A DNA stretch of 64,000 nt, taken from Octopus sinensis. Lineage: Eukaryota. The position numbers and the translations under genes were made by a program. The notes beneath the pieces are model-generated. The model saw nothing but the letters and a program-made list of their open reading frames with translations. It ran no database searches and was not told the origin of the DNA. The stretch spans positions 61,504,001-61,568,000 of the forward strand of contig NC_043004.1 in NCBI RefSeq assembly GCF_006345805.1, in the 5' to 3' direction. Shown here piece after piece: positions 2,210-60,400 of this stretch; position 1 is the stretch's first letter; each line of letters opens with the position of its first letter.

Positions 2210-2367
2210 GGAGGTGTACTTGCATAGCGAGTGACTTGATCTGTGATCGTGTGCTGGAACGAAAACAATTGCAGCGTGGAAGGTGTTAGATTCACTTCAA
2301 CATTTAAATTTAATTTGTCAAACTATTTTCGTCGATTTGAGACCGCGACCTGTTCACTGACAAAACT
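2208..2367 (-). mobile_element. Family F1 copy with a G3-C8 hammerhead-like fold (2314-2364)
   Basis: Minus strand reads tttgtca-GTGAACA-g-gtcgc-ggtctcaaa-tcgac-GAAA-atagtt-tgacaaa; abuts (TA)n. Confidence 0.75.
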
Positions 2368-3572: not shown

Positions 3573-3619
3573 TGATGCTGACGAGTGAATACTTTTACGA
3601 AAACGTAGAATTTACATCG
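3573..3619 (+). ncRNA. Minimal type I hammerhead ribozyme-like motif
   Basis: tgatg-CTGACGA-gtgaa-tact-tttac-GAAA-acgtagaat-TTA-catcg; stems I and II pair, stem III only about 2 bp. Confidence 0.55.
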
Positions 3620-13149: not shown

Positions 13150-13375
13150 AGGCGGCAAGCTGGCAATGACGTTAGCACGCCGAGCGATATGCTTAGCGAT
13201 ATTTCGTCCGTCTTCACGTTCTGTGTTCAAATCCCACTGAGGTCAGCTGTGTCTTTCATCCTTTCGATGTCCAATAACAAAGTACCAGTCACGCACTGGG
13301 ATCGATGTAATTCGAGCAGTAACCTCTTACAGAATTTCAAGTCTTGTGCCTTTAGGAGAAATGATTATTATTATT
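13150..13375 (+). mobile_element. tRNA-derived SINE, family B (diverged)
   Basis: ggcggcaagctggca...gttcaaatccc...gtaccagtcacgcactggg, homologous to 37769-38002. Confidence 0.8.
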
Positions 13376-19990: not shown

Positions 19991-20043
<53 letters not shown>

Positions 20044-20049
<6 letters not shown>

Positions 20050-20668
20050 CAATATAAGGAGTGGCCTTAATAGGCTATTCGACTCACTAGAAAGAGCAGC
20101 CAAACTCAAACCGTTAAATAGTTGTAATTCTGAAATTGAAAGAGAAATAAAAATATTTACCCTTTTCATCTCTGGACTATGCATAGTTTCGACAAACTTT
20201 AGTAAACAAATTAATTAAATTAAATTAAATTTATTTACAACTGGCGTGTCTCGTCAGCAGAGAAGCCGAGGACGAGTATATGTCCACGAGGCGACGGCAA
20301 AGAAGCCTCCAGTCTATATGCTCTAAATTTTCAAAATCCACCGCCACCGCGCTGTCTTCTCAGCAGCAAATATAAACTGCTGATTTAATTTCAAAATTAG
20401 CCAAAAAATCATTAATTAATAAATATAAGGGTAGCAAAAAAATTCTAGAAAAATTTCTCCGCTACCAGCGGTCTAATGAGAAAGGAAACATAATCAAAGA
20501 TTATATAATATACATTCAACAATATAAGGAATGGCCCTAATAGGCTATTCGATTCACTAGAAAGAGCAGCCAAACTCAAACCGCTAAATAGTTGTAATTC
20601 TGAAATTGAAAAAGAAATAAAAACATTTACCCTTTTCATCTCTGGACAATGCATAGTTTCGACAAACT
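20044..20668 (-). mobile_element. Retrozyme-like partial tandem: 470-bp unit, ~1.3 copies, 155-bp direct repeats (20044-20198 and 20514-20668)
   Basis: Repeats differ at about 7 positions; (TA)n on both flanks; non-coding; carries a hammerhead. Confidence 0.85.
20169..20263 (-). ncRNA. Canonical type I hammerhead ribozyme
   Basis: tctctg-CTGACGA-gaca-(AT-rich hairpin)-tgtc-GAAAC-tatgcata-GTC-cagaga; full core, 6-bp stem I, palindromic stem III, GUC cleavage triplet. Confidence 0.88.
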
Positions 20669-20706
20669 ATATATATATATATATATATATGTTTTTTTCA
20701 TTTTAG

Positions 20707-20837
20707 GTACCTTATACAACGCTCAGGGAGAATATTCGCCATGGCTCACAACGAGTGCAAAAGCGTCTTTTGAAAGACTTTCTAAAGAGCTAATTAACCA
20801 ATATTCACACTTCAAAATACCTGGTACCAGTCTACAT
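20707..20837 (+). CDS. M13 peptidase exon (GTLYNAQGEYSPWL...INQYSHFKIPGTSLH)
   Basis: ttttag acceptor, GTAAGT donor; 131 nt with phases 1 to 0 fitting both neighbours. Confidence 0.93.
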
Positions 20838-21019
20838 GTAAGTTTGTTTATTGTCTTATATAGCATATTAATAAACATACGTAGGAAATTCAGATTAAGT
20901 AAAAACACCAAAACAACATTTATAAATCTATGTGCATATAAATATAATCTAACATTTGTTTTTTATAAGCGCTAACACGTGTCTTGTAAAATAAAAATAA
21001 GACGATAAATTATTTTCGA

Positions 21020-22255
21020 ATGCAGATATATTAGGTGTCAGCTGTTTTAAGCATTGTGTTGCAGGCATGATAAGGCAGTGTCTTAAATGTTTTACTCGTT
21101 TAAATCGTTTGCAGTTCTTAAGTTCTTAAAACTGGCATAGAGATAGATACGTAGGTTCGTGTGTCTGGTTGCACTGATAACTACCACATCTAAATTTAGT
21201 GACCTCAGTTTATTGAGGTAGCCCTGTTTCCAAGATGACCTCAAGCCATGTGCATTTATATTTCTATTCAAAGCAAGGCCATGTTAGATTACGGAATTGA
21301 AGCAGAAGGGATTTTGTTCGAAAAACGGAGATAGATGTTCATTCCACATAGCTATATCTGCGTGCTCCCACGACCAGTTATTATACACTCGTTCAGACAA
21401 TGTGGTTTTCATGGATTTCTATGTGTTTCTTGTTGCTTGGTTGAGTTGTATGTATATTGGAGTGTTGTTTGGGGGTACGATAAGATGCCAGTGTGTGCCG
21501 TCTGTAGGGATGTATATATGTTTCGTTAGTTCTTAATTTTTCGTATTTATACCTGTGTAGTTAATGTTATTTAAGTGCTGTGATAATGAATTTGGTTGTG
21601 CTTGTAAGGATGGTGTATGTGATAATATTGGTGGTTATGTTAGTGATGGATTAGATATTGTTGACGGTATTGGCATAGCTCCTACTGGGGGTGTTTTTTG
21701 CACACTGTTTCTCAAAGGTTTCTACACCTTTGTTTATAACTGCTAAATTTTGCGGCGTGATATTGTTTTTCTTTAATTTTTTAGACCTGGCGACATTTTG
21801 CTATTTAGGTTTTTCATTGTCACATTCTTCTTGGTCTCACAAAGAGAAGTATGTCTTGGGAAGATGTTGGTGCTGTTGCGTTGATAATGTAGTTGTTGAT
21901 CTCGGGGATTCTGATCCTGTTCTTTTTGTTGCTGTGTCGAATCTGGAATTCATTGGATTGCTGTATTTTCTGCTCTGATTGATGCTGTTGCTTCCACTGT
22001 TATTGTTCTTGTTGTTGCTGCAACTGCTACAGATACTGTTGTAATTTCGGATGTTACTCTTGTGTCTGCATCTTTAGTGGTCACCTGTCTCTACTAGTGC
22101 TATTATATTTCTGTCGGCAAAAGTGGATGTCTCCGAGTCTCTGATTTGCTACGGGCAAAAGGACTTTTGTTCCATACTTGATAGGTTATCCGTCTGCCTG
22201 GCGCCAAACCACGAAACCAGGCCACAAGCACTCTGTTTCTAAACTGACCTCCATA
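21020..22255 (-). mobile_element. Decayed L1/Tx1-like element, 5' portion (low-complexity ORF1-like region and start of APE)
   Basis: Minus strand near 21170-21270 encodes NINAHGLRSSWKQGYL.KLRSLNLDVVVISATR; boundaries approximate. Confidence 0.55.
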
Positions 22256-22258
22256 TCA

Positions 22259-22356
<98 letters not shown>

Positions 22357-22401
22357 GAAATATGTTTTGAAAAAATATATAGAATACACGTGTAAATGTA
22401 A

Positions 22402-24589
22402 GGGTAAAATATAAAAAATCAACGAAAATGCATATTGTAGATATAAAAAGGCTATTTATGTCAGGTAGTGACAAATATATACATTTAGAGTATTACTAGT
22501 CAAAAAGGTCATTATTATTGATGATTATAAGAAGTTAATAATAATAATAATAAGGTAGGGGACTGAAACGAACCAATTGGTTTTCGCGTTAGCTATTCAT
22601 CGTTTGAACAACACCGGTTAGTAAACGGTGTCAGGTCTAATAGTTCCTGAGAAAAGAGATTATTTTTAAGGGAGGTAAGTAGTTCTGGATTATATGTATA
22701 AGGGAGGTAAGTAGTTCAGACATTAGAAATGTGAATGATCTAGAAAGTGTATAGGGTTTAATGGTTTAAATTGAAGGGTTACTGGTGTTCTGTATTGAGC
22801 TGTGTGTTCACATTTAGTTGGGGGAGAAATTTGTTGATGAAAAATGACTCTTTATTCGACCTTTGTTGCATTGTGGTGTTCTGTGAGCATTGGTAAAAGG
22901 GAAATATTTGGAAATTGAGATTAAGTTTCCTGGCACATCTTTCTATGTGTTCACTCACCTTTAACTGTCTCTATTGTGGGTGGCGGATTTGCTCTTTGTG
23001 AATGGTGATTCTTTGACGGAGCGAAATTCCTGTTTGTCTAATATAGAGTTTACCGCATCCTATGCATGTCATGACATAGATTACATTTGCTGAGGCGCAG
23101 GTGAAATTTGATTTGATCTTAAATATTTCTCCTTGTTTGAATTGGAATTCTGAACCCTGCAGAAGGTGGGGGCATGTTCCACAGTTAGAACGTCCACATT
23201 TTGTCACTTTTGGCTCAGTTGTTAGTGGATAAAGTCTAGTGGGTAAAGTGTTTGGGGTAGCAGACATCTTAATTAGAATAGTTAACAACCACATAGAAAC
23301 AGACATCTTTTATAAACCCAAAGAATCTAAACAATACCTATTATTTAACTCCTGCCACCCCAAACACATAAAAATCAACATACCCTTTAACCTAGCAGAA
23401 AGAATCTGCACCATAGTTTCCGATACATACACTCGTGAACATAGACTCCTTGAACTTAGATCTACACTAACTAAAAGACACTACCCAATCTCATTAGTAA
23501 ATGAAGGTATCAAAGAGCTAAGGGAATAGATATACAAAGATTAAGGGAAACTAGCCGAAATACTAAACAAGACTTAAAAATACTCCCGTACACCTCCACA
23601 CATAACCCCAGAAACAACGAAGCCTTCAACATCATCACCCAAAACCTCCCCATCCTCACAGCAGACAAAACAATGAACAACATTTTAAGCTCATATAAAA
23701 TTATAAAAAGCAAAAAGCAACCGAAGTCACTGAAAAGAATACTAACCAGCGCTAGACTTTACCCACTAACTACTGAGCCAAAAGTGACAAAATGTAGACG
23801 TTCTAACTGTGGAACATGCCCCCACCTTCTGGAGGGTTCAGAATTCCAATTCAAACAAGGAGAAATATTTAAGATCAAATCAAATTTCACCTGCGCCTCA
23901 GCAAATGTAATCTATGTCATGATATGCATAGGATGTGATAAACTCTATATTGGACAAACAGGAATTTCGCTCCATCAAATAATCCCTATTTACAAAGAGC
24001 AAATCCGCCACCCACAATAGAGACAGTTAAAGGTGAGTGAACACATAGAAAGATGTGCCAGGAAACTTAATCTCAATTTCCAAATATTTCCCTTTTACCA
24101 ATGCTCACAGAACACCACAATGCAACAAAGGTCGAATAAAGAGTCATTTTTCATCAACAAATTTCTCCCCCAACTAAATGTGAACACACAGCTCAATACA
24201 GAACACCACTAACTCTTCAATTTAAACCACTAAACCCTATACACTTTCTAGATCATTCACATTTCTAATTTCTGAACTACTTACCTCCCTTATACATATA
24301 ATCCAGAACTACTTACCTCCCTTAAAAATAAACTCTTTTCTCAGGAACTATTAGACCTGACACCGTTTACTAACCGGTGTTGTTCAAACGATGAATAGCT
24401 AACGCGAAAACCAATTGGTTCGTTTCAGTCTCCTACCTTATTATTATTATTATTAATTTCTTATAATCATTAATAATAATGACCTTTTTGACTAGTAATA
24501 CTCTAAATGTATATATTTGTCACTACCTGACATAAATAGCCTTTTTATATCTACAATATGCATTTTCGTTGATTTTATATATTTTACCC
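22402..24589 (+). mobile_element. 5'-truncated Penelope-like retroelement (RT C-terminus and GIY-YIG endonuclease) preceded by an inverted ~838-bp copy of its own 3' end
   Basis: TDIFYKP..SKQYLLFNSCHPKHIKINIP; CRRSNCGTC...FTCASANVIYVMICIGCDKLYIGQTG; arms 22402-23239 and 23752-24589; (TA)n on both sides; frameshift and stop present. Confidence 0.93.
24386..24425 (+). ncRNA. Variant hammerhead-like fold with A3-U8 core in the PLE 3' repeat (mirror copy 22566-22605, minus strand)
   Basis: aaacg-ATGAATA-gc-taac-gc-GAAA-accaattggt-t-cgttt; needs one extra nucleotide in the core. Confidence 0.55.
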
Positions 24590-26097
24590 CTATATATATA
24601 TATATATATATATATATGCATATATAAGAGTGTCTGCATAGGTATACGTTCACGTACAGACTCACATACGTAGATATACACATACGCGATTAGGCATTCA
24701 CAAGTTAAGTATTATTCACATATGCAATAGAAATGTGAATAAATACACTTAGCTTACATAAATGAAAGGATGAATGTCTTCCAAAATATTTTATAAATTA
24801 TTACATCAAATTATAGTTATTGTAAACGTAAATTTGAAAAGCAACAACAGCACAAGAATAGAAAAGGTTCATTATGGATACAACGTGCTTCGAATTTGTG
24901 AAGAATTCATTTCTTCAGGTAAACATGAACATGTTTATATATAAGGGTTGTTCCGCTAAGGAATTTGAATGATATAAATTATATTTAATAGTAACGTTTT
25001 TTTTTCCTGACGCAGAAAAACATCGCTAGCTCGACTAGATACAGTGTAAAACTTGCATTCAGTGTTTTGTTAATAGAAACTTTGTTAACACATGAAGCTG
25101 AAATACTTCAATATATAACTTTTCCTTTTGTTTACCTTTTTTTTGCTTCAAATTGATATGCTGATAAAAACGATATTATTTTGGACATTCTTATGCTTAG
25201 CTTGAAGTTAATTATCACACTTTGTTAATTGGTAACATATGAAAATGTAGGCGCAAGTGTATCTCTATCTGCATAAGGATAAGTTTCTAGTCTCATTTGT
25301 GTGTTGAATAACTGTATGGGATTCGATCCGGTATCTTAACAAGCAACCAAACGCTAGGTTAACATTTTTGATAAACTTCTTACTCTTAGTGATTCTGTGG
25401 TAGAATAATAAGAGCGCCCGGTTGAATATATCCTGGTATTTACATCCCTGATACCAAATTGTTAGTAAGTTTAGTCTTCTATAAGTTATTATTATTAAGA
25501 TTCCGCTAAGGTTAACTTTAACATTCCTCCTCTCGGGATCGATAAAGTATAGAGATACCACTGGTTTGAATTTTAAGATTTAAGCAACATCGAAAGATTT
25601 TAAACGAGTACTTGATTTTCCTTTCAGACTAATAATGCAGTCTTTGTCGTGATCTGCTTCCTGGTTCTTCAATTTAATAATGTAGCTCTCTCGTTTTTTC
25701 ATTTAAGAAAATGAGCAATGTGTCTTCATATTAAGACACAAGTAAAAGCCAACGTTCTTTATTATTAACAACTCATTAAACATTGAGTTTATAATACTCA
25801 TTCCATTAAATGTTTTCCACTTTCGATCAATTTTCTAATCCTTCTATGTATTCTTTGGAAATATCCTGCACCAATCTTGACCAAAAAAATGTAGTTTGTT
25901 CATGTTTTAAAAATTATTGTTGAATCGTTTTATTTGATTCGTTCCAAATCTCACCCAAAGACTGCAAGGAACTACAAGCTGGTCGTTTTACTATCGGAGT
26001 TATTTATAATAATCCATGATATAATAATAATAAAAATAAAAAATAAAAATAGTAATAAAAAATGAAAATAATAATAATAATAATAATGATAATAATA

Positions 26098-27174
26098 ATG
26101 GGAATATTGTATACTGTGCTCAGGTGCACCACAAGTTGTCAAAAGTGCGTATAAAGCATATGCAGTAATATACAAATGTCTGAAAAGTGAACAGTGTATG
26201 AGTCAGATACATGCTTGCGTGTGTAAGGAGGGTAGGAAATCATGTTTAGTGTTGGCGAATCTCAGGAAGCATGGACGTTCGAAGGATGCAAGTGCTCCAA
26301 CAGCTAACAACTGATGCCGGCAGTTTGTTCTATACCTCAGCAACTCTTAGCGCGAAAAAATGTTTCCGAAAGTCATGGGAGCTGTGCTGTTTTCTGACTT
26401 TGTAAACATGTCCAGGGGGGTTTGACGGGTGGAGTTTGAAAGGTAGTCAGCGTTATTGTTAGTAAGATGGTTAATAATTTTATAAGTGTCTGCCAAGTCA
26501 GCTGCCAGACATCGGAGTTTCAATGTATCCATGCTCAAGTAAGTAAAGCGTTCAGAATATGGCAAATGTCTGATGGAGGGTATTCTCTTGGTTGCACGTC
26601 GCTGAACGGTTTCCAGACGATATGTGGTAGGGAAAGGAGACTAGAGTGCAAGAAATAAGATTCTTCTAAATTTGTAATATTTTAGTCCTGAAGGTGTTTT
26701 ATAAGTACCAAACACATTCAAGTTCACAGTCCTTTTCTTGGTATGTGGGGATACCAATGTCTGGCAGCTGACTTGGCAGACACCGATGAAATTCTTAACG
26801 ATCATACTAACAGTAACTCTGACCACCTTTTCAAACTCCACCCGTCTAACACCCGTGGACATGTTTACAAAGTCAGAAAACAGCACAGCTCCCATGACTT
26901 TCGGAAACATTTTTTCACGCTAAGAGTTGCTGAAGCATGGAACAGACTGCCGGCATCAGTTGTTAGCTGTTGGAGCACTGCATCCTTCGAAACGTCCATG
27001 CTTCCTGAGATTCGCCAACATTAAACACGATTTCCCCCCCCCCCTTACACACGCAAGCATGTATCTGACTCGTACACTGTTCACTTTTCAGACATTTGTA
27101 CATTACTGCATATGCTTTATACGCACTTTTGCCAAGTTGTGATGCACCTGAGCACAGTATACAATATACCCATT
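26098..27174. mobile_element. Two CR1/L2-type LINE 3' ends in inverted orientation (about 26098-26610 minus; 26760-27174 plus)
   Basis: TRGHVYKVRKQHSSHDFRKHFFTLRVAEAWNRLPASVVSC; matching 3' UTRs; (TTA)n and poly-A tails face outward. Confidence 0.85.
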
Positions 27175-27397
27175 AAAAAAAAAAACATTTTGGTGACCTG
27201 ACACCTTAGGCATTGTGTCTAAGAGTGAAATTTGCCATTGCACTCTGGTTTTCGGCATTCACACATGCATATGTTTTTCTTAGATGCTGCAGTTTTGGGA
27301 CATCTCTTTTAAGGTCCCTATATTTAGTTATCTTTTTTTGCTATAACAGAAGATATATAGCAATAGTAGTAATATTGTAAGCAACAGCAGCAGCAAT

Positions 27398-27459
<62 letters not shown>

Positions 27460-28047
27460 CGTTGCTGCTGCTATTTTGATTGTTGTAGTGGTCTTGGCAA
27501 TATTGCTCTAACATCTATATTAATTTGTATGTCCTTAATGTTTTTTTTTTGGCTCAGATGCTGCCGACGTCAGCTTTGAATCCATATTTTCGAGACCTAT
27601 ATAGTACTGGGGTTGATGTAATCCTGCATTCACTCTCTCTTAGAATTTCTGGCATTCTGCCAAATTGAAAACCAGCAAATAGAATGTTAAATTGACTGGT
27701 GCGCAGGAAATATGTGGTAAAAATTTGTAACAAACTCAAAGCCACCATTATAAATATGATTATTGCAGTAATGTAAATAACACAGTTGTACCAATAAACT
27801 TTCAGCAGCAGAGAAAACCAACAATGAAATCTCTTCCAGACAAATGACAGAAGATCACATCCTATCATCCCAAATAAACAACACAGCGCATAATGCATTG
27901 CTACATACGACTAAAATGACATACTCGATCATAGGTATATTCGATCAAGATAGCGTTATACGACACAAACAACAACAGATCCGACATCTTTCGGGCGAAA
28001 CTTTACAGTTTCAATATTCGTTTAAACATTATTTATTTCATTGTTGT

Positions 28048-31620: not shown

Positions 31621-34600
31621 TTAAAATTCCTTAATTTTGGATAAGATATTGCGTTTTTTTTCTATTCGTGCGGTCAGATTTATAACGAAAACTCTTTAGA
31701 GTATCATTCCAGGGTTGACGACCAGCGTAATTTCGAGTATTTTGAACGAAACATGTTTCCTTTTTTTTGTGTGTGTGTGTGTGCTGGAACTTTGCGTTGT
31801 GCTGCAATTTCTCCCCCCTACCATTACAGGAATCGTTTAACTCTGATAGACATCTAATGACTCACGGAGATCTATAATTAGGCGACTCGACAAGTTGATC
31901 CCGATATCTCAGTAACATTAGTATAAAAACCAATCGCATCCTTGATTGATGAAGATCACACAATGTTTTTAAAATACTGATTGGTAATATTGGCTCAAAT
32001 CTAATGCTTTATACGGTGGAAGGTAAAGTAGGTAATATAGAAAGCAGTATATGGCTGAGTATTTATGTAATGTTAGAGTTTCAAATATCAGAATCAGTTC
32101 ACTCATTACTCTTCAACACAGCTGCTTTAAAGTTACGCTTATTTCCATCTGAACAATACATGAGGCAACAGCACTTTCTGCTATTTGTCGTTTGAAGACA
32201 TGCGCAAGAATTGTATTAATCCACAATCTTCAGTTCCAGTTCTTGAGTTCTCCGATTACTCTTACATGAACTTATCAAGTTCACTTTTGTCCATGAGTTG
32301 TCTTCAAGAACGTTCAGACCTTTGCTCGAATTCCCTAACACTATATTCAATTGCGTTCTTCAATGCCAGCAACGACACGTATACTTTCCTTTGCCTGACA
32401 AAACTGTAAGACAAATGAAGATTATAAATATAAGAAAATGCACATTATATCGCAGCATATCTTCTAACTTTAGCTTCTGTGTTGATATGGCGCTGATGTC
32501 GAATTTTACCTTCACTCTTTCTAGTTTGATAACATAAGTACCAGTTAAAGACTGGCGTTGATATAATCTACTTCCGCTCTCTCTCCCAATTGCTTTCCTT
32601 GTTCCACAATTTGAAATCGGTATTTATTAGAATTTATGCGGTTTATTCATACAAGGGAAACCGGATTGCAGTCAGCTGAATAACAGATGCGATGGTGTAT
32701 TTATAAATTGTTGGGACGATAAGCAACGAAGAATTTCTTTAAAATTAACTAAATTTCAATGTTTACTGTAGAATATCATTTTACTGTAATATGATAGTTG
32801 TTTGATAAGGATGTCGCCAAGATATTTAGAAAACATTTTCAGCATTCAAATAATGTTTTGAAGGATTTCTTCAGTCACTATTATATTTATGAGCTTGATG
32901 AGATGTACAGTAATTAATGAAAGAACTTGTGGTTATAATAACTACATTCTTTGAGCTTTGAATTTACAAGTCTCTGCTTTTCATTCTACTGAACCTACAC
33001 ATATTATAATTATAAAGGATAAATAAATCTAGTATCCTAATCTTCAGAACATAAAATAATTAGATGAGATCTATTATTTATTTGGCAATACGTTTAACCT
33101 ATAGTAGTATTAGTTTCTTCTATACAATATGAGAAGACAGAACTGAATATTTTTATCAAGATGGCTTCTTTGCTTAAAACCGTGATTGCGTCTAATCATA
33201 ACAATTCTTTCTTGTCTATGCAATCTTTTATCCATTATAATAAACATTAATCAGGTTGTAACTTGGCATAGAAATTTTTCAAAAAGGAAATAGTTCTCCC
33301 ACATTTTCTGAACAATACTGGGACTCTCCGGCATATAAGTTCTTAATGGCTTTCTTGGAATAAAATTCTTATATATATTTATATCATTTTTACTTCAAAG
33401 AAACATCAATCAATAGCACTCCTTGTTTAAATTGTTTTCTTTTGTTATATATATTTATACCGTACTGGTGCAATTTTGTTTTTTTCTTGAAAAAGAGAGC
33501 GATGTATTAGAAGTTTTATTTCATCTTACCCTATGTAGCTCAAATAACGCCTATTACAATGCAATTTCGTCAAGGAATTTGCTTTCTGTTTTCCATCAAA
33601 CAGATGGTACATATTCCCTTACAACCATTGTAACAACAATATATATTTCAGCTACTAGGAGTATCACATCTGAAATGCAGTCGACATGACAATTATGGTG
33701 TATTCATTGTTATTGCTGTCATTAAAGCATACCCTGTTGTTTCTTACTGTTATTTAGTTGTTAGTAACATGCTTTGGTACAGAGATACATCGTCTATATT
33801 TCTTTCTGGAAAAAGAAAGTCGGTACAACCAAGAAAACGTGTACATTAATGTTTCAAAGTAACAAATTTTTGATAATTTCTTAAAATCCTTTGTCGATTC
33901 TCGGATTACTGTTATCCTAAGCGCGCAGTGTCTATCTGAGTATGCAAATCTGTCAATTCCTAAACAGAAACAGCTGCATAGCATTCTTATTTTACCTGTG
34001 TTTGCAATTTAATAGCTGAGTCGATGGAAATCATTAAGGTTTTCAGCTTGCTTTCACACCGACAGCTGTTTTACAATGAAAAATCACGACAGGCCTTTAT
34101 GTGTTATATATTAATCGAAATGTAAAAGTATCACAGTGCCAATTTCAAGCAAATAGGGATATGCAATAATCAGTAAAACGTGTACATATATTAGGACAAA
34201 TAAACTTATTATTTCAGACGTCTTGCATTTTCCATGATTTGTTTCCTGCAAAATTAAGGCGGGAAATACAAATTTTGTCTCTCTACAGGTTTTATTTGTC
34301 TCTGGAAGTCAAATTCATCTATATAGCCTGTGCATAAGACCGAATGGGATATTTTCTGTCTAATATGTTTATATATGAGTCCTAGGACTTCTTTATACGC
34401 ACCTCTGGTTGTGGCCATAACAGTATGTCTAATATGGACTTTCTATATACTTTTTCACAGTACTGTTGTACAGTATTCTTTTACGCTAAGCAACAGTCTT
34501 GAAATAAATAACTATCTGGATTAAAACACGAAATTATAAGTATCACATGATATGTATGTCCAGATAGATGAAAGGATATTCGGCAACTATTTTGAATGTA

Positions 34601-37768: not shown

Positions 37769-38002
37769 GAGGCGCCGAGCTGGCAGAAACGTTAGAGTAT
37801 CGGGCGAAATGCTTAGCGTTATTTCGTCTGTCGTTACGTTCTGAGTTCAAATTCCGCCGAGGTCGACTTTGCCTTTCATCCTTTCGGGGTCGATAAATAA
37901 AGCACCAGTTTCGCACTGGGGTCGATGTAATCGACTTAATCCCTTTGTCTGTCCTTGTTTGTCCCCTCTAAGTGTCTAGCCCCTTGTGGGCAGTAAAGAA
38001 AT
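37769..38002 (+). mobile_element. tRNA-derived SINE family B, well preserved
   Basis: A-box-like gagctggcagaa, B-box gagttcaaattcc, tail agccccttgtgggcagtaaagaaata; copies at 40808-41040 (-) and 60128-60360 (+). Confidence 0.9.
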
Positions 38003-38490: not shown

Positions 38491-40807
38491 ATATATATAT
38501 ATATATATGCACACATCAAGTACAAAACACAATATGGACGCATATATGTCCTTCCATAGAAACACGTACGCACCTATACGTTTAGAAACAAATATTCCTT
38601 AATCACACAAACCCTTACATACGTCTTAAATCCCCTCGCACACGCGCGCATGCGCAGCACTCATTAACGATCACGTAATTACACGCACACACACATACGC
38701 ATATACAGACATCAACACTCATACCACTAATAACACATACACAGCTGACATACACACCAACAGTCTCGCTCATGCGAGCACCCACACAGGTGCTACACAC
38801 ACACACGCAATACTCATATACATACACCTTACAAATCACGTACCTATGCATGAACGAGTTGATGCCATCAGCCCTTACCGATAAGACAAAATTCACCAAC
38901 GCATTATTTCACACGCGCTTGCACACTCCATACAGGCTTAAACACATGTATAATTACTAGACACCCACATCCAACTACTCGTATATCTGGTATGCACACA
39001 CATGCTTCCTTGCCCGCCGTATCTCTGTCATATCTCATGTTTCTGCAAAACCATGTCTCGGCCAATCACCAGTTCCCGCTACTACATCTAGTGCAACTTA
39101 AATGCACGTCTCACCTCTAACAACACCATGCGACCCACCTTCACAATCGGTAGATCAGTTTCTATTAGTAATCTTCGTCATCTTCTGTCTCTCTATTCGG
39201 AAGTCTGAGTTAGAAACGCACTAGGTTAGAGTAAGATACAGTTTTAAAAATAATAATGCCCACGCAAACCACACACGCACACACATATACATAAACACGA
39301 ACACATATAACATTCCATAGTTAATATTGCAGAAAGCTGTTTTTCTCGAAGCAGGAAAAATATTTATTTAAAATGCAAAGCAAGGTCGCGAATATTGTAA
39401 GCGCCGTGTCTAGAATATGGTCTGATACACAGAACCAGAAGTTTTCATTAGAGAGCTTAATATAAGCAAGACTAGTCTTTCCGCCTTTGGCCGACGCGTT
39501 CACAATAATTCCATTATATAACGTCGCACTATGAAATCTACGCGCACGTTATATACACACATGTATACATACATACATACATATATACGGGCATACATAC
39601 ACACACACGCAGACACACAAAAGCATACACACACACACACACACACACTCATACATATATACATTGCATTGTTATATAACATAGACTGAAATAGAATTTA
39701 TAGTCTATATGGTTTGGCCTTTGTAATAATCATGCTAACAATATATTTAATGCGCTGGTTACCATTGTTTGTCCGAACAGTAATTTACACACCAATGATG
39801 CTTTTAACAAAGAAAAGTGGAAACTATCAAATTACTTATCAAAGTCAGACATTATCCATACGATGCAAGAAAATAATTGGTGAAGAAAACCATAAATATG
39901 AAATTCTTTATCATTCATATTTATACCTTATTGAATTATTCATTAGGAGAGGTTAGTTATAATAGAAACCACAGTAAACAGCCTCATATGGTTGTGTACT
40001 ATAACATAAATTTAATAAACTAGTCAATTATGCTCAGAGTTGGTACTGTTTTTATGCATTCCCAAGCAAGAAATATTTCCCCTAAATTAATGCACAGAAA
40101 TTATTCACATTCATGTTCATACAAGTATGTTAATTAAGGAGAGGAACGATTGCTCCCTGGGTGGTTATATGCTTGTCGCTAAGTGATATTTACGCAGTTG
40201 ATTCCCGATTTCTGTAATTTATAGTAATATATCAAATGTTTCTTTGTATCCTTTATTCGTATAATAACTCTCACTTTCTGAACACATATATGAAGCATGA
40301 TAATATGAAGTCAATGGCGACGTTAGTATTGATAAAGAAATCAGGTATTATGTTGAGTTAACTTAATGACGTTTAAGTCCACTCTTTATCATATATCTAC
40401 ATAGTAAAGTTTGCAAATTTTAATGACTGGGAAATGGATTGCACACTTACTACATACAGGAAAATATCATAGTGAAAACCTTCATCTACGCTTCAACTGA
40501 AGTGATTATTTAACTTATTATTTGCTGTGTCGACCTTGTAGTACCAGTAACCTATATCGAAATGCAAATACAACTTTGCAGAGATTGTAATATATTTCTT
40601 TCTTTGTCCTCATTACAAAAAACGCTCTTAACTAGCTTATTAACTACTGGCATTATATAAGGCATATTACGTTGTAACACTAGATGTAAAATCGCTGTCT
40701 TAAACTCAATTAAATATTGTTATATTTAGTCAAAATTTTTCTATAATAAAGTTTCGCAAAGAGATATTAAAAATAGAATGGTTTAAGATATATATATATA
40801 TATATAT

Positions 40808-41040
40808 ATTCCTTTACTACCCACAAGGGGTTAAACATAGAGGGGACAAGCAAGGATAGAGAAAGGGATTAAGTCGATTACATTGACCCCAGTGCGAAAC
40901 TGGTACTTTATTTATCGACCCCGAAAGGATGAAAGGCAAAGTCGACCTCGGCGGAATTTGAACTCAGAACGTAACGACAGACGAAATACCGCTAAGCATT
41001 TCGCCAGGTGCACTAACGTTTCTGGCAACTCGTCGCCTTA
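40808..41040 (-). mobile_element. SINE family B
   Basis: Reverse complement of 37769-38002. Confidence 0.9.
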
Positions 41041-46467: not shown

Positions 46468-46828
46468 GTAGAGTAGCACCTCGATTTTCGAACGACTCTG
46501 ATCACGAATAAATCGTGCTTTATATATATATATCTATTATATAAAATCCGATCTGTCTGTTTGTGTGTGTCTTCTAGAATTTCGGGCATCCTCCATCCGA
46601 TTGCGCTAGCATCGATCGCAAAAGATGATGTACTTACGCGTAAAAATGCACGTTCCTACGGCTTTATCGATCGCATTCTCACCTGCAATCGATTTTTTCG
46701 TTATTTTTTCAAGACTTATACACGCCCTGATACCGACCTTATCTACATATCAATATGTAGATACAGATACAGATATAAAGCATGAGTTATTCGTGATCAG
46801 ACGCATTCGTAAACCGAGGTATACCGTA
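46468..46828. mobile_element. MITE-like element with ~55-bp imperfect terminal inverted repeats and an internal Helitron-like 5' fragment
   Basis: acctcgattttcgaacgactctgatcacgaataa and ttattcgtgatcagacgcattcgtaaaccgaggt. Confidence 0.6.
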
Positions 46829-54109: not shown

Positions 54110-56820
54110 TATAGATAGTCATGGTTCACATGGTGAAGCCATCTAGTAACGACTCCGTTCAGAAAGCTGGAATAGATGATATCATTCGAAGAAAGAACAT
54201 TGTACAATGAATATCCACAGAATCAAGCTGTAGTTTTTAAATGCTTTTACTCCAGGTCATAAATATATACATGTTGAATAAATCGCGAAAGGTATTTACA
54301 AGTGAAAGGCCGTGTTTACCAGTGTTAGATATGATGCTCCGGATTACTACTGGCGATTACAAGGTCATCGATGTATGCGAAGAGAAAGTCTAACCCACGA
54401 ACGACCACATGAATTAACCTTTGGAACGTAATGGCTGCTTTACGTAGACTAAACGGCATAGAAAATAAGTCAAATGCTCCAAAAAATGGGGTGACGGCTG
54501 TTTTTAGAATATCATCGGGGTTGACAGGGATTTGATGGTATGAGCATACCGAGTCGACTTTAGATAGAAAAACCTTATAGGCATGCTGGTTAGACGAGAT
54601 ACTGCACATTTTGTACCGGATATAGCGATCTGGAATAGCAACAGTATTAAGGCGTCTAAAATCTCCAACCGGTCGAAAATCAGCTTCATTCTTCCTGGCC
54701 ATGTGTGAGGGCGCTGCTCAGGGGCTCGTAGAGGGACGAATAAGGCCCAGCTATAATATGCGCTCGAATTCAGCCCGGACGATCCGGAGATTCCCTTTAG
54801 ACAAACGGCGCGGTCGGGAAAAATCAGGAAGTCCCTTAGTTGTGATGAAATGTTTCATGGAATGGGCTTGATTCGACGGATGAAATGACAAATCGGTCAA
54901 CAGTGGGAACGAAGCAAGTAACTGGCGGTAAGCGCCACGTGATGCAGCCACAAAGAAAGAAGGGTTCACAACAGCGAGCGAGGTAGTATCAGCAAGACGC
55001 CGGTGTCCTCTAACGTCCACCAGTGATGTAAGAAGTCAGCTCCAAGTATGGGGTTGGGGAGGTCCACTATGACGAAGATCCACTTGAAATCCCTACAGAG
55101 TGACAAAGCGAGGGTAAGAGTGATTTGTCCGTATGTTTTAATGGCAGAGGGATTCATCACGTAGAGAGAGATGTCAGAAAGACTAGGAATGGTGGAAGTA
55201 AACCTTCGAGGCCTGAAAATCACACTGACTCCCGTGTCAACCTTAAAGGACTTTGAAGATCTAGCATCGCGGATAAGAGAATGCACGGTAAGGTGAATCA
55301 ATGGGGGAGACAGCTGTCGTACTCAATGCCTTCTGGCCTAGTTTCCCGGAGAAGAGCAGAGCTGAGAACAATTTTTGGCCTGGTCTTTAAATTTCCTATG
55401 ATACCAGCAAACGAATGGCTCAGGAAGCGTGCATCCGCGCCAGTAAGAGCGGCGTCTACTCCTTCCTGTAGAATAATTCCGAGAAGAACGGTTCCTTCAC
55501 ATGCGTGAAACTTGACGGATCAGTTCCCTAATAGCCCATAAGGTTTCGGAAGATTGTGTGTCATCCGGAGCAGAAGAAGAAGTGCAAGTTCGCGAGGAAG
55601 AGGAGAAAGCAACTGCGACAATGTTGTCAGATGGTGACGAGGTACCAGAGTATTCCAGAATACTGTCTGAAGAGACGGTAAGTTGTTTTAATAACGGTAT
55701 GTTCCGTCATGGATGCTAGAATTGATTGGACATTAGAAGGCTTCCTTGAGAAAAATAACTGTTTGACGAATGATTGACCCTCATATGAACTATCGGTAAA
55801 TCCCGGATCCGTCGCAAAAACTCCGTGAGGGCTTGGCCCTCGAGATACTCATCGCGCAAGAGTATTCATACGTCATGTCGGGTGGGTTCCTGTTATCATA
55901 TCGCAGACTGAGAGTGCGAGAGAAAAAGGAATGACTGGGAGTGCAATGTGTAGTTTGATCTGAGCCGACTGAATATTCGAAGAAATGAAAAATGATTCCA
56001 ATTGTGTCAACCTCTTCGTAGAATCTCTATGAAATTGAGGCAAATGAAAATGACTCATCTTTAGGCGATAATACCACGAAGTACATGCTGGTTGAAGGAA
56101 ACGCCGTTAGAAATGGTCGTCAAACACACTAGTTGAAAAAAGACGCGAAGAGCATCAAACTAGGAATTTCATACTCTACAGTAGAGGATGAAATGGGAGA
56201 GTTCTTGCTAGCGGATGAAGAACAGAACAAAGGCCAACACATAGTACCGGTAGGTTTGAGAGAGGAGAAATTGTTATCCCTATGAATTCAAGATAACACT
56301 GTCTGTTAAATATAACTTCTTTTATATGAAAAGAATAAAAATTCTCCTGGGAAGCTGTGTCTTAGAAGGGCGAAGTTGTAATTTCAGATACGACACGAGG
56401 AAAAAATGCTCTGCAGTTCCCGATTAAAAGTGGCGCCAAAAAATTTGAAAGAGAAGACAAATATGGCAACGAGAGGAGCATCAGTAGTATGTCCTTTTAC
56501 GATGAATGGCGATTTAGACGCATAGTCAAAGTTGAAAAGGAGAAAAAGGAATGCATGTATTGACAGATTCAGAAATTCATCCGCGAAGGATCACCACTTT
56601 AGAAGAAATTGTGATCAATTATAGATGGTCATGGCTAACGTGGTGAAACCATCTAATAACGACTCTGTTCAGAAAGCTGGAATAGAAGATATCATTCGAA
56701 GAAAAATCAGTGTTCAATAAAGGTCCACAGAAGGAAGCTGTAAATGATTTTACTCCACGTCACACACATATATATAAGTTGAATAAATCATGAAAGGTAT
56801 TTAAAGTAAAAGGCCATGCA
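54110..56820 (-). mobile_element. Internally deleted Ty3/Gypsy LTR retrotransposon (gag, protease, RT; ~200-bp LTR-like direct repeats at 54110-54312 and about 56600-56820)
   Basis: CWYHRKF..AKNC; VDTG...PILGADFL; GDFRRLN, YHQIPV, MPFSL..A..TFQR, AYIDD; PBS-like tggtgatcc next to the right repeat. Confidence 0.9.
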
Positions 56821-60127: not shown

Positions 60128-60360
60128 TGGCGGCGAGCTGGCAGAAACGATAGCATGTAGGGCGGCAATGCTTTGCAGTATTTCGTCTGCCGCTACGTTC
60201 TGAGTTAAAATTCCGCCTAGGTCGACTTTGCCTTTCATCCTTTCAGGGTCGATTAAATAAGTACGAGTTACGCGCTGGGGTCGATATAATCGACTTAATC
60301 CGTTTCTCAGTCCTTGTTTGTCCTCTCTGTGTTTAGCCCCTTGTGGGTAGTAAAGAAATA
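60128..60360 (+). mobile_element. SINE family B
   Basis: Homologous to 37769-38002. Confidence 0.9.
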
Positions 60361-60400
60361 AGTATAAGGTATAAGTGTCTATACATAAACACACACACGC

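What the first reader, a model, noticed from the sequence alone, without database searches (positions are those of the whole stretch)
24386..24425. A3-U8 hammerhead variant at the expected ribozyme position of a coding Penelope element
Seen: the PLE 3' repeat has no CUGANGA but reads aaacg-AUGAAUA-gc(uaac)gc-GAAA-accaauuggu-u-cguuu, identical in both inverted arms. With the canonical C3-G8 and the G3-C8 elements, three different Watson-Crick pairs at 3:8 occur within this one gene. Established: PLE terminal repeats typically carry minimal hammerheads with palindromic stem III. Caveat: one extra nucleotide (before position 3 or within GAAAA) must be accommodated and stem II is only 2 bp.
Basis: partly seen in the sequence, partly recalled or inferred. 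Interest (0 to 1): 0.8.

Follow-up and report, generated by a model that had tools for sequence, protein, structure and literature searches.

The report
Flipped-core hammerheads in Penelope-like elements
This 40-base motif in the tail of a broken Penelope-like jumping gene is a descendant of a self-cutting hammerhead RNA whose core C-G pair has become A-U, a form that fills over a thousand copies in this genome beside the other three possible pairs, while this young branch has also shifted a key catalytic G by one place and likely cuts weakly or not at all (untested).

Summary
The arms come from one insertion, and the copy is 5'-truncated and broken, not coding. Older subfamilies of the same Neptune-like PLE family carry clean hammerheads at the homologous spot. 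With one fixed descriptor, 6,705 motifs genome-wide are U3-A8 5,020, A3-U8 1,062, and about 95 C3-G8 and 86 G3-C8, so about 93% are Watson-Crick. The 'extra nucleotide' lies in the G12-A15.1 strand and arose by substitution: CGAAA to GUAAA to GAAAA, so the old G12 was lost and a new G stands one base 5'. Eleven of 35 copies of the window's subfamily carry an unpaired A3-C8. No cleavage evidence was found; the monomer is predicted to misfold. Natural A3-U8 was in none of the papers I could read, but Lunse 2017 was not held. Verdict: a new variant of a known kind. The ancestral A3-U8 cores are likely active; activity of this subfamily is about 40%.

The parts
24386..24390 (+). Hammerhead stem I, 5' strand (G24390 = 2.1)
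   Evidence: Pairs with 24421-25; 2.1-1.1 changed A-U to G-C on one internal branch subtending 55 of 76 tips
24391..24397 (+). Core 5' strand A3 U4 G5 A6 A7 U8 A9
   Evidence: 3:8 is A-U in 59, G-C in 7, A-C in 8, A-A in 2 of 76 parsed copies
24398..24405 (+). Stem-loop II, 2 bp (G10.1-C11.1, C-G), loop UAAC
   Evidence: In 46 copies lacking the old G12: G10.1-C in 44, second pair C-G 38 and U-G 4; loop changed 4 times on internal branches
24406..24410 (+). Core 3' strand G-A-A-A-A: new G12 (old C11.1), one extra base (old G12, then U, then A), A13 A14 A15.1
   Evidence: Homology series CGAAA / GGAAA / GUAAA / GCAAA / GAAAA on the family tree
24410..24419 (+). Palindromic stem III (A15.1 to U16.1), predicted dimer interface
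   Evidence: Self-duplex -13.0 kcal/mol; palindrome kept while its length varies across subfamilies
24420..24421 (+). U17 and predicted cleavage site (after G-U-U, between 24420 and 24421)
   Evidence: Inferred from homology: A17 in old subfamilies, U or C17 in young ones; no RNA ends observed
24421..24425 (+). Hammerhead stem I, 3' strand
24379..24399 (+). Competing 8-bp hairpin that sequesters the core 5' strand in the monomer
   Evidence: MFE structure; stem I pair probability 0.01
22566..22605 (-). Second, identical copy of the motif in the inverted arm
23233..24212 (+). Broken 3' part of the PLE ORF: RT thumb, CX4CX2C linker (23793-23819), GIY-YIG endonuclease; frameshift near 23510-23525, TAG at 24018
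   Evidence: family copy L267 has a 627-aa open frame with DKG and YLDD motifs and Pfam GIY-YIG E 4.6e-6
24213..24590 (+). 3' UTR / pseudo-LTR holding the hammerhead, ending at a (TA)n run
22384..23239 (-). Inverted 5'-truncated second copy (endonuclease and 3' UTR), ending near a (TA)n run
   Evidence: typical PLE insertion layout per PMC8557442

Best explanation
The motif is the type I minimal hammerhead of a Neptune-like Penelope retroelement with a natural A3-U8 core pair, and it would likely cut, slowly if at all, after U24420 only when two copies pair through their stem III palindromes. Shown: homology, register, compensatory changes at 3:8 and in stem I, and the history of the 3' core strand. 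In this young branch the old G12 was replaced (G to U to A) after C11.1 became G. A new 2-bp stem II then put a new G one base 5', leaving one extra base between it and A15.1. Inferred: this is an attenuated ribozyme, probably needing the element's own protein as shown for an Anolis PLE. Weak activity is tolerated or even useful, because reverse transcription starts about 160 nt downstream and must copy through an uncut site. At this locus the RNA is likely silent: any read-through transcript meets the 856-nt antisense arm before the sense hammerhead, and the monomer misfolds. My odds: homology and register 0.93; older clean A3-U8 families catalytically competent 0.75; the window's GAAAA subfamily measurably active in a dimer or with protein 0.4.
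For: Clean cores at the homologous position in older subfamilies: A3-U8 (L088, L089, L100, L102, L104, L108) and G3-C8 (L091, L106, L119), and in sister families at 55-60% protein identity, U3-A8 and a second A3-U8 lineage with a different, complementary stem I. Double changes on single internal branches at 3:8 and 2.1:1.1, in a tree built without the motif. Genome-wide about 6,263 of 6,705 motifs are Watson-Crick at 3:8; reversed-pattern controls 0-21. In the 45-tip young clade, internal changes fall mostly on positions a hammerhead leaves free: loop II 4, stem III centre 3, extra base 2, H17 2, against 4 over 27 paired or core sites. Perreault 2011 reports an active natural insertion in the GAAA strand (U13a) and 2-bp stem II. 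PMC11167929: a PLE hammerhead needs the element's protein, tolerates G3-C8, and is not needed for insertion in vitro. No copy starts exactly at the cut site among the first 100 of 272 tail-selected copies, as expected if templates are uncut.
Against: No cleavage was observed or could be tested. The old G12 (the general base) was replaced in the lineage. An extra base between G12 and A13 (the GUAAA state) is not among the variants I read. An unpaired A3-C8 spread to 11 of 35 subfamily copies. In the young clade the deficit of changes at constrained sites is not significant against the flank (4 observed, 7.4 expected, P 0.14). Over the whole tree, core internal changes are 1 in 9 columns against 0.64 per UTR column (P 0.02), but terminal changes are low too and the ratio test is not significant (P 0.46), partly because my parser dropped 13 of 89 degraded copies. 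Stem II shrank from 3-4 bp to 2 bp along the lineage. The monomer hammerhead fold has probability 0.01.
Confidence: 0.5

Rival explanations
1. Catalytically dead relic: the ancestors were working A3-U8 hammerheads, but catalysis was lost when G12 was replaced. The motif persists by short divergence time or as a non-catalytic RNA handle (dimerisation through the palindrome, protein binding).
For: Old G12 is U, A or C in 46 of 76 tips; uncompensated A3-C8 clade, support 99/91; constraint in the young clade not significant; the GUAAA-type clade still reached roughly 425 copies (490 matches, control 65); hammerhead mutants do not impair insertion in vitro.
Against: A G and a new G-C/C-G stem II appeared exactly one base 5' and were kept; A3-A9, A13-A15.1 and U16.1 show no other internal change in the young clade while loops change repeatedly.
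Confidence: 0.37
2. Register switch in the GAAAA subfamily: GAAA is read canonically (24406-09), stem III is the 12-nt palindrome 24409-24420, C24421 is the cleavage site, and the extra base sits 5' of the core (G24390 as an insertion before A3, or G24390 pairing with U/C24396 around a bulged A).
For: The palindrome is perfect over 12 nt (duplex -14.8 vs -13.0). The C8 clade arose inside the GAAAA clade, where G24390-C8 would be Watson-Crick. Insertions before position 3 exist in saltern hammerheads with weak activity.
Against: Not the homologous register; it breaks the G2.1-C1.1 pair that arose compensatorily. It is impossible in the GUAAA ancestors. It scores 1.5 kcal/mol worse as a monomer. 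It rests on one evolutionary event.
Confidence: 0.11
3. Chance resemblance: ordinary AT-rich UTR sequence that fits a loose hammerhead pattern.
For: No Rfam hammerhead model matched 20000-28000 even at E 10.
Against: Homologous clean hammerheads and covariation; 1,062 A3-U8 matches against 2 in the control.
Confidence: 0.02

Closest known systems
Minimal type I hammerheads (min-HHRs) of metazoan Penelope-like elements, including the U3-A8 variant of Schistosoma mansoni Cercyon (Cervera and De la Pena 2014, PMC4209133; main text parts 1-2 and supplement part 1 read)
   Same: Place in the pLTR/3' UTR, type I topology, short stem I, G10.1-C11.1, palindromic stem III, predicted dimer action, covariation at 3:8.
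   Different: Pair is A3-U8 (purine-pyrimidine), not C3-G8 or U3-A8; no extra base between A9 and 10.1 (their consensus CUGANGAH); stem II 2 bp instead of 6-8; extra base in the G12-A15.1 strand.
Natural hammerhead core variants of Perreault et al. 2011 (PMC3088659; passages and part 3 read)
   Same: Natural U3-A8; insertion U13a in the GAAA strand; insertions 2a/2b before position 3; 2-bp stem II.
   Different: No A3-U8 or G3-C8 in the passages read; their insertion follows A13, whereas the ancestral form here has U directly after the G; theirs are rare single cases, here whole subfamilies.
Anolis Poseidon PAc hammerhead (PMC11167929; passages read)
   Same: PLE hammerhead; engineered G3-C8 partly rescues cleavage; protein-assisted; not needed for insertion in vitro.
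   Different: Canonical C3-G8 in nature; Poseidon clade; overlaps the start codon, whereas here the motif lies in the 3' UTR copy about 175 nt after the stop.
Short-stem-III PLE hammerheads (Lunse, Weinberg and Breaker 2017) and engineered 3:8 swaps (Przybilski and Hammann 2007); neither held, content recalled
   Same: Dimer cleavage of PLE hammerheads; as recalled, any Watson-Crick pair at 3:8 kept some activity in vitro.
   Different: Unknown whether Lunse's roughly 150,000 motifs (number recalled) already include A3-U8; this is the main gap in the novelty claim.
Neptune/Nematis clades of EN+ Penelope-like elements (PMC8557442; passages read)
   Same: RT followed by a CX2-5CxxC linker and C-terminal GIY-YIG with CCHH; DKG motif; (TA)n targets; inverted 5'-truncated partner copy.
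   Different: Hammerhead core is non-canonical, so a CUGANGA descriptor such as the one used there would miss it.

Membership tests
Hammerhead ribozyme (type I, PLE minimal form) | Three helices round the core, with covariation support | tested here: met
   Compensatory changes at 2.1-1.1 and 2.3-1.3 (the latter possibly a slip); palindromic stem III of varying length; G10.1-C11.1
Hammerhead ribozyme (type I, PLE minimal form) | U4 G5 A6 N7 and A9 | tested here: met
   U4 76/76, G5 75/76, A6 76/76, A9 75/76 of parsed copies (the parser required a near-intact core)
Hammerhead ribozyme (type I, PLE minimal form) | Watson-Crick pair at 3:8 | tested here: met
   A-U in the window; about 93% Watson-Crick among 6,705 genome-wide motifs; broken (A-C) in 11 of 35 subfamily copies
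Hammerhead ribozyme (type I, PLE minimal form) | Contiguous G12 A13 A14 A15.1 between stems II and III | tested here: not met
   One extra base in the window's subfamily (GAAAA) and its ancestors (GUAAA); met in the older A3-U8 subfamilies
Hammerhead ribozyme (type I, PLE minimal form) | A15.1-U16.1 pair and H17 | tested here: met
   A-U in 72 of 76; H17 is U 43, A 22, C 10, G 1
Hammerhead ribozyme (type I, PLE minimal form) | Site-specific self-cleavage | not testable with these tools
   Only assembled contigs were available, none on record as RNA
Hammerhead ribozyme (type I, PLE minimal form) | Match to an Rfam hammerhead model | tested here: not met
   No hammerhead family among 18 hits at E up to 10; expected for minimal non-canonical forms
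EN+ Penelope-like element, Neptune/Nematis type | RT followed by C-terminal GIY-YIG endonuclease in one ORF | tested here: met
   L267 627-aa frame with DKG, YLDD and GIY-YIG; homologues carry PF00078 and PF01541
EN+ Penelope-like element, Neptune/Nematis type | CX2-5CxxC linker zinc finger and CCHH motif | tested here: met
   CX4CX2C at window 23793-23819; CxxC and two His in the endonuclease (definition)
EN+ Penelope-like element, Neptune/Nematis type | Placement within Neptune (rather than Nematis) in an RT tree with named references | not tested
   No named reference PLE set was available; 'Neptune-like' rests on motifs
EN+ Penelope-like element, Neptune/Nematis type | Tandem/inverted insertions, (TA)n targets | tested here: met
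   Inverted arms in (TA)n here; same-strand tandem pairs at L022 and L242/L243

The most novel reading that the evidence does not exclude
One radiation of Penelope-like elements has sampled all four Watson-Crick pairs at the hammerhead's 3:8 position in nature, crossing through mismatched intermediates such as the A3-C8 clade caught here. In its youngest branch it rebuilt the active site by handing the general-base role to a new G one nucleotide upstream, giving a working hammerhead with A3-U8 and a bulged base after G12. That would be a new natural core architecture with its whole evolutionary path preserved in one genome.
Probability: 0.3. Interest if true: 0.75.

Novelty: new variant of a known kind. 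Interest (0 to 1): 0.52.

Why it matters
C3-G8 is treated as nearly fixed in nature, and descriptors built on CUGANGA miss these motifs: under my descriptor only about 1.4% of 6,705 motifs are canonical, though it undercounts canonical forms that have a non-G base after A9. Abundant natural A3-U8 and G3-C8 cores give the phylogenetic proof of the 3:8 pair in the purine-pyrimidine orientation and widen ribozyme searches. The family also offers a dated natural series (clean A3-U8, G3-C8, GUAAA, GAAAA, A3-C8). Assaying it would directly test the open question of whether PLE hammerheads are kept for catalysis, for weak regulated catalysis, or merely ride along.

Tried and rejected
My first idea, that the U/C variation at 24396 meant G24390 is the real position 3, was demoted once older subfamilies fixed the register; it is kept as a minor rival. 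A C3(delta U4) reading of CGAUGA was rejected because stems I and II cannot then form. Rfam scan: no hammerhead. A second hammerhead in long family copies: none credible; an antisense G3-C8-like string inside the endonuclease (window about 24108 minus) lacks a palindrome and has a wobble-rich stem I, and the canonical motif in L269 belongs to another inserted repeat. The G3-C8-like string at 46505(-) and the C3-G8 string at 3578(+) fail the strict scan. RNA evidence: no RNA holder listed; all runs were contigs, with no molecule ends. 5' truncation at the cut site as a genomic footprint of cleavage: 0 of the first 100 of 272 copies start at 1.1 and 3 start within 2 nt, no excess (read by eye). 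Host gene: no exon found. In the protein tree the row L258 is mislabelled G3-C8 (its best match is a neighbouring U3-A8 element) and was ignored; L126 is a long branch. The order of A3-U8 and G3-C8 at the base of the window's family is unresolved. Papers not held: Lunse 2017, Przybilski and Hammann 2007, Nelson and Uhlenbeck 2008, Seehafer 2011, Hammann 2012. Supplement file 1 of PMC4209133 was not searched and parts 2-3 of file 2 were seen only as search passages. Earlier scan findings: none for this genome.

Full report
Observation. The motif is at window 24386-24425 (+) as described, with an identical copy in the inverted arm. The arms (22384-23239, 23752-24607; 97%) are the two halves of one insertion in a (TA)n tract, a layout described for PLEs (PMC8557442), so their agreement is not independent. 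The right-hand copy spans about 23233-24590 and keeps only the RT thumb, linker and GIY-YIG region, with a frameshift near 23510-23525 and a stop at 24018. A family copy elsewhere has a 627-aa open frame with DKG, YLDD, a CX4CX2C linker and GIY-YIG, which marks a Neptune/Nematis-type EN+ PLE. Named homologues are mostly from bivalves or bivalve-associated samples at 44-48%. Rfam found no hammerhead.

Finding the register. A search of the genome with the linker/endonuclease peptide scored 150 copies from 100% to 56% identity. I read the 3' ends of the top 30 and of 60 more chosen across the range. At the homologous position, older subfamilies (63-80%) carry unambiguous minimal hammerheads: stem I, a 7-nt core, stem II of up to 4 bp opening G-C, GAAA, a palindrome, U16.1 and A17. 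Their cores are A3-U8 (with N7 = A or U) or G3-C8. Sister families (55-60%) carry U3-A8, or A3-U8 with a different complementary stem I. From 250 loci I anchored 182 motifs, 143 unique. Of these, 89 had at least 450 nt of homologous upstream sequence and went into a tree built without the motif. I parsed 82 and dropped 6 more as misparsed, leaving 76. On that tree, 3 and 8 change together once (G-C / A-U), 2.1 and 1.1 change together once (A-U to G-C, 55 tips), and 2.3-1.3 once more (possibly a slip).

The extra base. Aligned by homology, the strand before stem III runs C-G-AAA in old subfamilies, G-G-AAA or C-G-AAA in intermediates, G-U-AAA in most young copies, and G-A-AAA in the window's subfamily (clade support 100/95). 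No insertion is needed: C11.1 became G and G12 became U, then A. At the same time the neighbouring bases formed a new 2-bp stem II with G10.1 (44 of 46 and 42 of 46 paired). Functionally this is either a slipped G12 with a bulged base, or a lost G12. The window's clade matches a pattern 490 times (control 65), mostly GUAAA in the 100 listed. The GAAAA subfamily has 35 exact matches (control 0), 24 with U8 and 11 with C8; the A3-C8 copies form a nested clade (99/91). Mean pairwise divergence is 6.3% for GAAAA, 5.8% for GUAAA, 11.7% for old A3-U8 and 13.2% for G3-C8. Runs labelled as two other organisms show the AUGAAUA core, and one shows the GUAAA form, in loose-end strings.

Genome-wide picture. 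With G after A9, C before GAAA and the palindrome ACCGGU fixed, and 3, 7 and 8 free, there are 6,705 matches (control 21): U3-A8 5,020, A3-U8 1,062, and 191 with G or C at both places. Of the 100 listed of those 191, 50 are C3-G8, 45 G3-C8 and 5 mismatched (counted by hand). About 93% are therefore Watson-Crick. Copies are not independent, and the descriptor excludes canonical motifs with a non-G base after A9 or another palindrome. A protein tree (49 rows) has a U3-A8 family basal and three supported clades: U3-A8; A3-U8 with U3-A8-like sisters; and the window's family (A3-U8 plus G3-C8). So A3-U8 probably arose more than once, or once with reversals.

Is it under selection? Over the whole family, yes by covariation, modestly by conservation: 1 internal change in 9 core columns against 0.64 per UTR column and 0.63 per third codon position (P about 0.02, 64 tips not chosen by pattern). 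Against coding columns overall P is 0.16, and the internal-to-terminal ratio does not differ (P 0.46). In the young clade the test has little power: 4 changes at 27 constrained sites against 7.4 expected (P 0.14), with 11 changes in loops, the extra base and H17. The loss of the old G12 and the A3-C8 clade point towards relaxation.

How it likely works. By analogy with PLE min-HHRs (PMC4209133), two copies in one RNA pair through their palindromes (-13.0 kcal/mol) and each cuts after G-U-U. Same-strand tandem copies exist (L022, L242/L243). Copies end about 160 nt downstream of the site, so reverse transcription must cross it uncut. None of the first 100 of 272 tail-selected copies begins at the site. 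In the Anolis PLE the hammerhead needs the element's protein and is dispensable for insertion in vitro (PMC11167929). A weak, protein-dependent or dispensable ribozyme would let the core drift through mismatches and explains why all four pairs were reached. For the window's own locus, the monomer is predicted to hide the core in an 8-bp hairpin (stem I probability 0.01), and on either strand the antisense arm is transcribed before the sense motif, so this copy is probably inert. These steps are inference; no RNA ends were available.

What is known. Natural U3-A8 is in print (PMC3088659; PMC4209133), as are an active U13a insertion, weak 2a/2b insertions and 2-bp stem II. Engineered G3-C8 rescue is in print. 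From memory, Przybilski and Hammann 2007 found every Watson-Crick pair at 3:8 cleavage-competent in vitro. Full-text searches for A3-U8, A3U8, G3C8 and related terms returned only the U3-A8 report or irrelevant papers, and a search for hammerhead with octopus and Penelope gave nothing on this. The Cervera supplement consensus is CUGANGAH. Lunse 2017 and four other key papers were not held, so absence from print is not established.

Verdict. A real PLE hammerhead homologue with a natural A3-U8 core, abundant in this genome; the window's copy belongs to the family's most derived and possibly decaying branch. New variant of a known kind; interest 0.52.

Noticed in passing
window 2300-2365 (minus; core starts at 2357); L271-L285: Short multi-copy repeat with a clean G3-C8 hammerhead (7-bp stem I, 4-bp stem II, extra G after A9, AUAU palindrome, U17); 908 first-look candidates, often in close inverted pairs.
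   Followed up: partly
window 41614 (minus) and 52527 (plus): Canonical C3-G8 minimal hammerheads, one with internal duplications, one with a decayed palindrome; the 52527 family also sits inside L269.
   Followed up: partly
L270 (G000:C4:158033500-158035000), L251-L255: C3-G8 hammerhead family in tandem units about 355-360 nt apart with no endonuclease match nearby, resembling non-autonomous retrozyme arrays.
   Followed up: no
L110, L114, L117: A G3-C8 sub-branch has GAUA in place of GAAA (A14 to U), another shared core deviation.
   Followed up: no
L286-L315: About 12 of 30 tail-selected copies are 5'-truncated within 15 nt of the hammerhead's 5' border (window 24378-24392), some with GAT slippage repeats; could be microhomology with (TA)n or a reverse-transcription stall (read by eye).
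   Followed up: no
L014, L015, L017, L018, L019, L024, L038, L040, L043: A3-C8 clade: the exact intermediate between A3-U8 and G3-C8. Speculation: A-to-I editing of A3 would restore an I-C pair.
   Followed up: partly
window 54328-54717 (minus): Fragment of another reverse transcriptase (Pfam RVT_1, E 6.5e-7).
   Followed up: no
window 13188-13349, 32444-32605, 37770-37973, 40801-41038, 60167-60366: A dispersed repeat of about 200 nt in several copies and both orientations.
   Followed up: no
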